In this document: piece by piece, positions 32,558 through 33,119 of the stretch | Position numbering within the stretch: position 1 is the stretch's first letter | How the letters are laid out: every line of letters begins with the position of its first letter | Assembly: GCA_051011455.1 (NCBI GenBank) | Contig: JBPCTX010000288.1 | Coordinates: forward strand, 1 to 35,338 | Reading direction: 5' to 3' | Source: Acidimicrobiia bacterium | GTDB lineage: Bacteria > Actinomycetota > Acidimicrobiia > Spongiisociales > SHLN01 | Length of the DNA: 35,338 nucleotides | The notes under the pieces: generated by a model | Seen by the model: the letters and a program-made list of their open reading frames with translations, nothing else | What the model was told of the DNA's origin: nothing | Databases searched by the model: none | Translations under genes and position numbers: made by a program

Positions 32558-33016
32558 CTAAAGCTCGGCTAGAGCTTCCGCGTACTCGTCGTGTTCGCGC
32601 GCTGTGCCCAGTGAGTCTGAGGCGATGATCTGTCGGACGATGCCGTCGGGGTCGAGCACGAAGGTGGTGCGATTGGCAACACCCATTTTCTCGTTGAAGG
32701 TGCCGTAGTCCTGACTCACCGCGCCGTGCGGCCAGAAGTCGGATACGACCGGGAAGTCGAACTCGTGTTCTTCAGCCCAGCGAGCATTGGTGGGCCGGGC
32801 GTGGCAGGTAACCACCACTACCCTCGCGTCGAGGTCGCTGAGGTCGACGAGGTCGTCCCTGATGGCACAGACCTCACCGTCGCAGATTGATGTGAACGGG
32901 AACGGGATGAAGACGACCAGCGTCTTTGAACCGGCCAGGTCGGACAGCGAGACAGGTTGGCCGTTCTGATCCGGGAGAGTGAACTGGGGGGCAGGCTGTC
33001 CGATGGTGGCGACGAT
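32558..33016 (-). CDS. AhpE/BCP-type peroxiredoxin (CxxxxC), proposed non-canonical ATC start
   Basis: My own translation upstream of the track's 86-aa ORF stays open and reads 'IVATIGQPAPQFTLPDQNGQPVSLSDLAGSKTLVVFIPFPFTSICDGEVCAIRDDL...'. It then continues 'FPVVSDFWPHGAVSQDYG', which is AhpE-like. There is no in-frame ATG/GTG/TTG between the stop at 33077-33079 and the GTG at 32818. SD AAGGAGA (33024-33030) lies 8 nt before the in-frame ATC at 33014-33016. Confidence 0.75.
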   Translation of the reverse strand: MVATIGQPAPQFTLPDQNGQPVSLSDLAGSKTLVVFIPFPFTSICDGEVCAIRDDLVDLSDLDARVVVVTCHARPTNARWAEEHEFDFPVVSDFWPHGAVSQDYGTFNEKMGVANRTTFVLDPDGIVRQIIASDSLGTAREHDEYAEALAEL

Positions 33017-33119
33017 CGCAGAGTCTCCTTGTCGGCGAGGACGGGAGCCTACTCCTCTCTTTTTGAGCCTTTCGACCTATCGAGGAGAGCGGGCCGGCGG
33101 AGTAACTTTGGGAGGTCGG

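What the first reader, a model, noticed from the sequence alone, without database searches (positions are those of the whole stretch)
32558..33030. Peroxiredoxin with no canonical start codon: probable AUC initiation behind a perfect Shine-Dalgarno
The ORF track reports only an 86-aa fragment starting at the GTG at 32818. The same frame remains open for another 86 codons upstream. It encodes the conserved thioredoxin-fold N-terminus, including the peroxidatic motif 'FPFTSICDGEVC' (a Cys-x4-Cys pair as in E. coli BCP). Between the upstream stop (33077-33079) and 32818 I find no in-frame ATG, GTG or TTG. On the coding strand the region reads cgacAAGGAGActctgcgATCgtcgccaccatcgga. That is a consensus SD 8 nt before an in-frame ATC, at the position where homologues start. 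It would give a 152-aa protein, matching the roughly 153 aa of M. tuberculosis AhpE as I recall. Automated callers would truncate the gene or label it a pseudogene. Alternatives are a single-base error or mutation (ATC vs ATG) or a true pseudogene.
Basis: seen in the sequence. Interest (0 to 1): 0.6.

Follow-up and report, generated by a model that had tools for sequence, protein, structure and literature searches.

The report
Peroxiredoxin gene with mutated start codon
An otherwise intact antioxidant-enzyme gene (an AhpE-type peroxiredoxin) in this uncultured Acidimicrobiia genome has ATC where relatives have the ATG start, so it is probably translated only weakly; close relatives have weakened the same start (ATA, CTG) or broken or deleted the gene, so this looks like a gene being turned down or lost, not a new mechanism.

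Summary
On the minus strand the frame is open from the TAG at 33079-33077 to the stop at 32560-32558. It has no ATG, GTG or TTG before the GTG at 32818. A complete 152-aa AhpE-type peroxiredoxin begins at ATC 33016-33014, 8 nt behind AAGGAG.

In 31 orthologues the homologous codon is ATG (25) or GTG (2), or an ATG lies one codon later (4). The two closest relatives read ATG behind the same SD. So the ATC is a derived ATG-to-ATC change, not a conserved non-canonical start.

The coding sequence shows no decay: dN/dS is about 0.08, and the family-profile score is as high as in ATG-bearing relatives. Two other relatives carry near-cognate codons at the same position (ATA, CTG). Others are frameshifted, half-deleted or lack the gene at the syntenic site.

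This lineage does use near-cognate starts elsewhere. infC starts at SD-preceded ATC across the order, and pgeF starts at CTG across the family.

Best reading: a real, hypomorphic start-codon allele with weak AUC initiation, in a gene that is being down-tuned or lost in this genus. This scan has noted ATC starts on other DNA before; those were conserved among relatives, this one is not. Interest is low to moderate.

The parts
32558..33016 (-). Full AhpE-type peroxiredoxin coding sequence read from the ATC (152 codons plus TAG stop at 32560-32558)
   Evidence: Translation. Pfam AhpC-TSA 1.3e-32 over residues 5-129. PDB best hit Mtb AhpE, E about 5e-37. 268 bits against a profile of 113 full-length homologues.
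33014..33016 (-). ATC at the position of the family's conserved start codon
   Evidence: The homologous codon is ATG in 25 and GTG in 2 of 31 orthologues, with ATG one codon later in 4. Closest relatives L033 and L034 read ATG there.
33024..33030 (-). Shine-Dalgarno AAGGAGA, 8 nt from GGAG to the ATC
   Evidence: The same AAGGAG at the same spacing is present in L033, L034 (ATG) and L035 (ATA).
33077..33079 (-). In-frame upstream stop TAG that bounds the open frame; it lies inside the conserved leader motif GATAGG
32816..32818 (-). First canonical in-frame codon (GTG, codon 67), the start of the 86-aa truncated ORF call; a product from here would lack the catalytic Cys
32882..32884 (-). Codon of the peroxidatic Cys45 in the PxxxTxxC motif (P38-T42-C45)
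   Evidence: Translation; aligned to the FTGIC motif of Mtb AhpE.
32867..32869 (-). Codon of Cys50 (Cys-x4-Cys), a candidate resolving cysteine that Mtb AhpE lacks
   Evidence: Conserved in the relatives shown. Absent in Mtb AhpE in the alignment (ICQGELDQ).
33061..33104 (-). Conserved leader or promoter element: TACTCC, about 15 nt, then TCGATAGGTCGAAAGGCTCAAAA, upstream of the SD
   Evidence: Conserved in the window, L033-L036, L101 and G005. No significant RNA structure.

Best explanation
This is a real AhpE-type peroxiredoxin gene whose ancestral ATG start codon has mutated to ATC, a G-to-C change at the third base. The promoter/leader region, the Shine-Dalgarno sequence, its spacing and the whole 152-codon frame are intact. 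Translation, as far as it still occurs, starts at this AUC with initiator fMet-tRNA. The 8-nt-upstream AAGGAG positions the codon in the P site, and IF3 proof-reading discriminates against it. The protein would therefore have a normal Met N-terminus but be made at a few percent or less of the ATG allele's rate. The allele is hypomorphic, not a conserved regulatory design. It sits in a genus where this gene is under weak or fading selection, and relatives have weakened the start (ATA, CTG), broken the gene or deleted it. A BCP/PrxQ paralogue in the same genome offers plausible redundancy. Shown: the position, the derived state, the intact frame, the recurrent lesions in relatives, and the use of SD+AUC at infC in this lineage. 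Inferred: that the base is real in the population, that AUC initiation occurs on this mRNA, and its efficiency.
For: The ATC aligns with ATG or GTG in 27 of 31 orthologues, and the other 4 have ATG one codon later. The closest relatives read ATG behind the same SD and spacing. There is no other start candidate with an SD. The coding sequence is not degenerating: NG86 dN/dS is 0.078-0.098 against relatives at dS about 0.8. It scores 268 bits against a profile of 113 homologues, versus 259 and 255 for the ATG-bearing P0001 and P0002, and its single deviation at the 46 columns that are at least 90% conserved is shared by the clade. Independent relatives carry near-cognate codons at the same position behind a strong SD: L035 has ATA and L101 has CTG and is sister to the ATG-bearing G005. 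The lineage uses near-cognate starts: its own infC has only an SD-preceded ATC, 26 of 30 infC genes in the order start at ATC, and pgeF has a family-conserved CTG. In E. coli, AUC initiates at about 1-2% of AUG (0.02-3% in other constructs) and yields an N-terminal Met (bioRxiv 10.1101/063800). infC's AUU/AUC is the target of IF3 autoregulation (PMC5499595). The gene is dispensable in the clade: L036 has a deletion of about 233 bp plus a frameshift, L080 has a frameshift, L082 a nonsense codon and L081 only a remnant. At the syntenic site, G006 keeps a remnant and G004, G003 and G001 have no gene. A BCP-type paralogue with an ATG start lies on C192.
Against: No read-level, transcript or protein evidence was available, so the single base could be an assembly or consensus error, or a minority variant. 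The non-canonical codon is not conserved, unlike accepted natural AUH starts. Repeated loss of the gene in close relatives fits an early pseudogene equally well. The low dN/dS only shows that any neutral period has been short. E. coli efficiencies may not transfer to Acidimicrobiia.
Confidence: 0.55

Rival explanations
1. The gene is a recently inactivated pseudogene. The ATG-to-ATC change was the first disabling hit in a gene that is no longer needed. No physiologically meaningful protein is made, and the intact frame only reflects how recent the hit is.
For: The gene is being lost in the genus: deletion plus frameshift in L036, frameshift in L080, nonsense in L082, remnant in L081, remnant in G006, and no gene at the syntenic slot in G004, G003 and G001. 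Orthologues keep ATG or GTG. A paralogue exists. AUC gives only about 0.02-3% of AUG in E. coli.
Against: There is no second lesion, the SD is intact, dN/dS is about 0.08 and the profile score is high. By my rough estimate, start-codon hits should be only a few percent of random disabling mutations in a 459-bp gene. Yet 3 of about 7 lesion-bearing lineages have a near-cognate start as their only change. That pattern suggests partial-function alleles are preferentially tolerated. The lineage demonstrably initiates at AUC and CUG.
Confidence: 0.2
2. The ATC is an assembly or sequencing artefact, or a minority variant. The population's gene really starts with ATG and the C is a consensus error in a fragmented MAG.
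For: The genome is a 384-contig MAG that is 81% complete. A single base separates ATC from the ATG of the nearest relatives. No independent assembly of the same population was found. Reads could not be inspected.
Against: Single-base consensus errors are rare, and this one would have to hit exactly the start codon. Independent assemblies of related lineages show the same kind of change at the same codon (ATA in L035, CTG in L101). The genome-wide screen found almost no other genes with a missing start, which argues against a generally error-ridden assembly.
Confidence: 0.1
3. The near-cognate start is selected as a regulatory device. The weak, IF3-discriminated start keeps the peroxiredoxin low in normal growth and lets it rise when IF3 proof-reading is relaxed, as at infC. 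It may have arisen once in the ancestor of the window/L035/L033 subclade and been kept under purifying selection.
For: Three lineages have near-cognate codons at this one position, with SD and frame intact. dN/dS is 0.08-0.10 across dS about 0.8 between the two ATH-bearing genes. Their relationship to the ATG-bearing L033 and L034 is unresolved in the CDS tree. infC-style SD+AUC is native here. IF3 control of AUU/AUC starts is established (PMC5499595).
Against: The three codons differ (ATC, ATA, CTG). Pairwise dS places L035 nearer to the ATG-bearing L033 than to the window, so independent changes (2 steps) are more parsimonious than one origin plus a reversion (3 steps). Most orthologues keep ATG. 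The gene is lost outright in neighbours, which fits relaxed selection better than fine regulation.
Confidence: 0.12

Closest known systems
M. tuberculosis AhpE (Rv2238c; PDB 1XXU, 1XVW, 4X0X)
   Same: It has the same subfamily, length and fold-wide alignment (residues 4-151 against 3-150, E about 5e-37; the next family, BCP, is at 1e-15). It shares the PxxxTxxC peroxidatic motif and the SDFWPHG block.
   Different: The window protein and its clade carry a second Cys five residues after the peroxidatic Cys (C45-x4-C50), a spacing like that of BCP/PrxQ. Mtb AhpE is a 1-Cys enzyme. The gene here starts with ATC instead of ATG.
Natural AUU/AUC starts of infC (and pcnB in E. coli), discriminated by IF3
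   Same: A near-cognate AUH codon sits behind a good Shine-Dalgarno with no canonical alternative. This organism's own infC uses exactly SD+ATC. The expected mechanism is weak, IF3-sensitive initiation with fMet.
   Different: The infC codon is conserved across the whole order (26 of 30 ATC). The peroxiredoxin ATC is not conserved: orthologues have ATG or GTG, and no autoregulatory logic is evident.
Start-codon loss as an early lesion of bacterial pseudogenes or hypomorphic alleles
   Same: It is a derived single-base loss of ATG in a gene that relatives have frameshifted, truncated or deleted.
   Different: There is no other lesion, the SD is intact and purifying selection has been strong until very recently. 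The replacement codons in three lineages are all near-cognates that still allow some initiation.

Membership tests
Peroxiredoxin, AhpE subfamily (AhpC/TSA fold) | Full-length AhpC-TSA / thioredoxin-fold domain | tested here: met
   Pfam PF00578 E=1.3e-32, profile positions 1-123 of 124 on residues 5-129.
Peroxiredoxin, AhpE subfamily (AhpC/TSA fold) | PxxxT/SxxC active-site motif with the peroxidatic Cys | tested here: met
   P38-F-P-F-T42-S-I-C45, aligned with PLAFTGIC of Mtb AhpE.
Peroxiredoxin, AhpE subfamily (AhpC/TSA fold) | Closer to AhpE than to the BCP/PrxQ, Prx1/AhpC, Tpx or Prx6 subfamilies | tested here: met
   PDB search: AhpE chains at 4e-37 to 3e-36, best other (BCP 2cx3) at 1.5e-15. 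No NCBIfam equivalog of another subfamily reaches its cut-off.
Peroxiredoxin, AhpE subfamily (AhpC/TSA fold) | 1-Cys mechanism as in the characterised Mtb enzyme | tested here: inconclusive
   A second Cys (C50) lies 5 residues after the peroxidatic Cys and is conserved in the clade. Whether it acts as a resolving Cys cannot be tested with these tools.
Genes with a maintained non-canonical (AUH) start codon, infC type | No canonical in-frame start that preserves the conserved N-terminus | tested here: met
   No ATG, GTG or TTG between the TAG at 33079 and codon 67.
Genes with a maintained non-canonical (AUH) start codon, infC type | Near-cognate codon at the homologous start position behind a Shine-Dalgarno at 5-10 nt | tested here: met
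   AAGGAG, then 8 nt, then ATC; this is the homologous position.
Genes with a maintained non-canonical (AUH) start codon, infC type | The non-canonical codon is conserved among orthologues | tested here: not met
   27 of 31 orthologues have ATG or GTG at that codon and 4 have ATG one codon later. The nearest relatives have ATG. Only scattered single lineages have ATA or CTG.
Genes with a maintained non-canonical (AUH) start codon, infC type | Experimental evidence of initiation at the codon | not testable with these tools
Pseudogene | Frame-disrupting lesion (frameshift, nonsense or truncation) | tested here: not met
   The 152-codon frame is intact; the only lesion is the start codon.
Pseudogene | Relaxed constraint on the coding sequence | tested here: not met
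   dN/dS is 0.078-0.098. The profile score equals or exceeds that of ATG-bearing relatives. Power is limited to excluding a long neutral period.
Pseudogene | Gene dispensable or lost in close relatives | tested here: met
   L036, L080, L081 and L082 are broken. G006 keeps a remnant. G004, G003 and G001 have an empty syntenic slot.

The most novel reading that the evidence does not exclude
The weak start is not decay but a maintained, IF3-sensitive expression valve on an oxidative-stress enzyme. An AUH start would have arisen in the ancestor of the window/L035/L033 subclade, or repeatedly under selection. It would have been kept while the protein stayed under strong purifying selection (dN/dS about 0.08 over dS about 0.8), coupling peroxiredoxin output to the cell's initiation-fidelity state in the way infC is coupled.
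Probability: 0.12. Interest if true: 0.55.

Novelty: new member of a known kind. Interest (0 to 1): 0.3.

Why it matters
For annotation, gene callers restricted to ATG/GTG/TTG report an 86-aa fragment here, and a 126-aa fragment in relative L035. Such calls hide a complete catalytic domain or mislabel it, so homology-aware start calling is needed. For biology, the locus gives a small natural series of one gene within one genus: intact with ATG, intact with ATC, ATA or CTG, frameshifted, half-deleted and absent. That series suggests start-codon weakening may be a common first step when a gene's expression is being turned down or the gene is being lost. It also documents that Acidimicrobiia of this order use AUC at infC and CUG at pgeF, which is useful background for judging other non-canonical starts in these genomes. 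It is not a new mechanism.

Tried and rejected
- **Read-level check:** I did not pass run accessions seen elsewhere to read laying.
- **Independent assemblies of the same allele:** two exact-pattern scans of metagenome contigs found nothing. An exact look-up of the 86-aa truncated product also found nothing.
- **Structured or regulatory leader RNA:** there was no Rfam hit at E up to 1 in 32350-33350. MFE z-scores of the leaders of the window, L033 and L035 were -0.07, +0.74 and +0.56. Rejected.
- **Sigma-70-type promoter scan:** no sites.
- **Other in-frame starts or a frameshift from the overlapping 130-aa ORF (32874-33266):** rejected. That ORF spans the intergenic region, overlaps the divergent gene's start and has no homology support. 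The second ATC (33004) is 20 nt from the SD.
- **The 139-aa homologue group (P0122 and others) as further start-less variants:** rejected. L037 has a normal SD plus ATG upstream, and the caller chose an internal ATG.
- **Over-long calls:** P0046 and P0118 have the normal Met internally. P0107 has a Val at the homologous position, presumably GTG, though its DNA was not read.
- **Covariation in the ~90-nt conserved block upstream of the transferase gene:** none; the block is too conserved to test.
- **Genome-wide screen for a general excess of start-less genes (a sign of a poor assembly):** apart from contig-edge ORFs and antisense shadows, only pgeF (a conserved CTG start) and a TGA-interrupted AhpD-like ORF came up.

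Full report
**Observation**

On the minus strand the frame that ends at the TAG stop 32560-32558 is open back to a TAG at 33079-33077. A codon-by-codon listing shows no ATG, GTG or TTG in the 86 codons between that stop and the GTG at 32818-32816, which is where the mechanical ORF list begins. Those 86 codons are 20 leader codons and 66 protein codons.

The near-cognate codons in the stretch are ATC 33016-33014, ATC 33004-33002, three CTG and three further ATC deep in the domain. Only the first ATC has a Shine-Dalgarno: AAGGAGA at 33030-33024, with 8 nt between GGAG and ATC.

Read from that ATC, the product is 152 aa. Pfam AhpC-TSA covers residues 5-129, matching profile positions 1-123 of 124, at E=1.3e-32. 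The 86-aa fragment retains only profile positions 66-123 and lacks the catalytic Cys.

**What the gene is**

The best solved relatives are the M. tuberculosis AhpE (Rv2238c) structures, at E about 4e-37 with residues 4-151 aligned to 3-150 of the 153-aa protein. The next family, BCP, scores 1.5e-15. No NCBIfam equivalog of another peroxiredoxin subfamily reaches its cut-off.

A search of 5.8 billion proteins returned 509 homologues, and nearly all of the best 120 are exactly 152 aa. So both ends of the protein are well defined in the family. Unlike Mtb AhpE, this clade has a second Cys five residues after the peroxidatic Cys. From general knowledge this resembles the BCP/PrxQ arrangement. I did not test whether it acts as a resolving Cys.

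**Is the ATC the family's start position, and is it conserved?**

I extracted 31 orthologous loci from relatives and metagenome contigs and read the codon homologous to the ATC. It is ATG in 25 and GTG in 2, and in 4 an ATG lies one codon downstream.

The two closest full-length relatives (L033 and L034, 88% and 87% protein identity) read taaggagtcttagccATGGCCGCAACCATCGGACAG. The window reads caaggagactctgcgATCGTCGCCACCATCGGACAG. The ATC therefore sits exactly at the conserved start, behind the same SD at the same spacing. It is a derived ATG-to-ATC change, not a conserved non-canonical start. This is the main difference from accepted natural AUH starts and from the other ATC-start cases this scan has noted.

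**State of the coding sequence**

Nei-Gojobori dN/dS between the window gene and L033, L034 and L035 is 0.078-0.098 at dS about 0.8. Splitting the pairwise distances puts about dS 0.59 and dN 0.04 on the window's own branch, which shows no relaxation.

Against a profile built from 113 full-length homologues, the window protein scores 268 bits, L035 scores 262, and the ATG-bearing P0001 and P0002 score 259 and 255. At the 46 columns that are at least 90% conserved, the window deviates once (L91V), and the whole clade shares that change. So either the start mutation is very recent or the gene is still under selection.

**Relatives with other start or gene lesions**

I searched with the 86-aa fragment to pull out truncated gene calls and read their DNA.

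| Locus | Source and similarity | What it shows |
|---|---|---|
| L035 | ENA contig, about 90% identity | ATA at the homologous codon behind AAGGAG at the same spacing; frame intact; caller cut it to 126 aa |
| L101 | Logan contig, 73% identity, sister to the ATG-bearing G005 gene (98/98 support) | CTG at the homologous codon, 7 nt after GGGAGG; an SD-less in-frame ATG 13 codons upstream inside the leader |
| L036 | Syntenic 7-kb contig | Clear pseudogene: a deletion of about 233 bp removes the SD, the start and about 77 codons; a 1-bp frameshift lies near the 3' end |
| L080 | About 81% identity | 1-nt insertion |
| L082 | About 63% identity | In-frame TAG |
| L081 | About 75% identity | Only the last 67 codons remain |

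The syntenic slot lies between the sugar transferase and the 304-aa gene. Other genomes of the genus fill it differently:

- G005 has an intact ATG gene.
- G006 has only a remnant of residues 5-30.
- G004, G003 and G001 have a 300-360-bp gap with no detectable gene.

On the neighbouring transferase gene, the window, L033 (ATG) and L036 (pseudogene) form a 100/99-supported trio and are about equally distant from one another. Within one tight group, then, the gene is intact with ATG, intact with a near-cognate start, frameshifted, half-deleted or absent.

**Independence of the near-cognate starts**

CTG in L101 is clearly separate. The window (ATC), L035 (ATA), L080 and the ATG pair L033/L034 form an unresolved group (86/89). 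Pairwise dS is 0.43 between L035 and L033 and about 0.8 between the window and either of them, which places the window outside the other two. Two independent changes (2 steps) are therefore more parsimonious than one origin plus a reversion (3 steps). The single-origin reading is not excluded.

**Does this lineage initiate at such codons?**

The genome's own infC has no ATG, GTG, TTG or CTG from the upstream stop (36 codons upstream) to 30 codons into the gene. It has only ATC, 5 nt after GAGGAGG and two codons before the IF3 model starts to align. Across 30 infC loci of the order, the start is ATC in 26, ATT in 2 and ATA in 2, always behind a GGAGG-type SD.

A genome-wide screen for coding sequence upstream of the first canonical start ranked the peroxiredoxin 4th of 991, and 2nd among ORFs not at a contig end. 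The only other real-looking cases were these two:

- **pgeF:** its Pfam domain begins upstream of the first ATG. Its frame opens at the ftsZ stop as aaggggTAAgccCTGATC. The CTG is kept in 9 of 10 genomes of the family, while distant relatives have ATG or GTG there.
- **An AhpD-like ORF:** it is interrupted by a TGA.

Near-cognate initiation is therefore native to this lineage, and the assembly is not littered with start-less genes.

**Literature**

In E. coli, AUA, AUC, AUU and CUG initiate at about 1-2% of AUG (0.02-3% in other constructs). An AUC-started GFP carried an N-terminal Met (bioRxiv 10.1101/063800). infC uses AUU or AUC as the target of IF3 autoregulation. A review of older work gives 5-7.5% of AUG for AUA, AUU and AUC on one construct (PMC5499595).

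**Interpretation**

The most likely reading (about 0.55) is a real hypomorphic allele. The mRNA, SD and frame are intact, and ribosomes still start at the AUC with fMet at a low, IF3-discriminated rate. The allele is one stage in a genus-wide weakening and loss of this gene. A BCP-type paralogue on C192 makes that tolerable.

One argument suggests the near-cognate alleles are not just random first hits of pseudogenisation. By my own rough estimate, start-codon substitutions should be only a few percent of disabling mutations in a 459-bp gene. Yet three of about seven lesion-bearing lineages carry a near-cognate start as their only change. The window was ascertained for exactly this feature, and my search targeted truncated calls, so the argument is suggestive only.

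The rivals are:

- a functionally dead, very recent pseudogene (about 0.2);
- a selected IF3-sensitive regulatory start (about 0.12).

A structured leader was looked for and not found.

**Verdict**

Near-cognate initiation and start-codon loss are both known phenomena, so this is a new member of a known kind with modest interest. The useful outputs are the corrected gene model, the natural allelic series of the locus, and the documentation of AUC (infC) and CUG (pgeF) starts in this Acidimicrobiia order.

Noticed in passing
G000:C285 (L050 position 1495); L051-L079: infC of this genome starts at ATC, 5 nt after GAGGAGG, with no canonical alternative. Across 30 infC loci of the order the start is ATC in 26, ATT in 2 and ATA in 2.
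   Followed up: yes
G000:C27:3247-3864 (L083); L084-L100: pgeF/yfiH opens directly after the ftsZ stop (aaggggTAAgccCTGATC). The Pfam Cu-oxidase_4 domain begins upstream of the first ATG (codon 42). The CTG is kept in 9 of 10 genomes of the family, while more distant relatives have ATG or GTG overlapping the ftsZ stop. This looks like a conserved CUG start, probably translationally coupled to ftsZ.
   Followed up: partly
G000:C58, around 741-743: An AhpD/CMD-like ORF is interrupted by an in-frame TGA at the position of the second Cys of the CxxC motif (AANCNY-TGA-GNV). A GC-rich hairpin (CCGCTTCGGCGAAGCGG) follows 14 nt downstream, and aragorn finds tRNA-Sec (tca) genes in the MAG. This is a candidate selenoprotein, not a broken gene.
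   Followed up: partly
window 33148-33236 (+ strand, upstream of the Bac_transf ATG at 33237): A block of about 90 nt is 87-96% identical across the genus, more conserved than the flanking coding sequences, and is kept even where the peroxiredoxin is deleted. It probably belongs to the leader or promoter of the sugar-transferase/Wzz operon. There is no Rfam hit, and covariation cannot be tested because the block is too conserved.
   Followed up: partly
window 33061-33104 (- strand): The motif TACTCC, about 15 nt, then TCGATAGGTCGAAAGGCTCAAAA upstream of the peroxiredoxin SD is conserved in the window, L033-L036, L101 and G005. It is a candidate promoter or operator. The in-frame upstream TAG stop lies inside it.
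   Followed up: no
window 32430-32556: Heptad tandem repeats ((CCAGCTA)n and a partly complementary array) immediately downstream of the peroxiredoxin stop match many intergenic sites in this and other genomes of the genus. They belong to the dispersed heptanucleotide repeat family already reported for this window.
   Followed up: partly
L101:85-135: In the CTG-start relative, an in-frame ATG without an SD has arisen 13 codons upstream inside the conserved leader. It could act as a compensatory start that adds an N-terminal extension.
   Followed up: no
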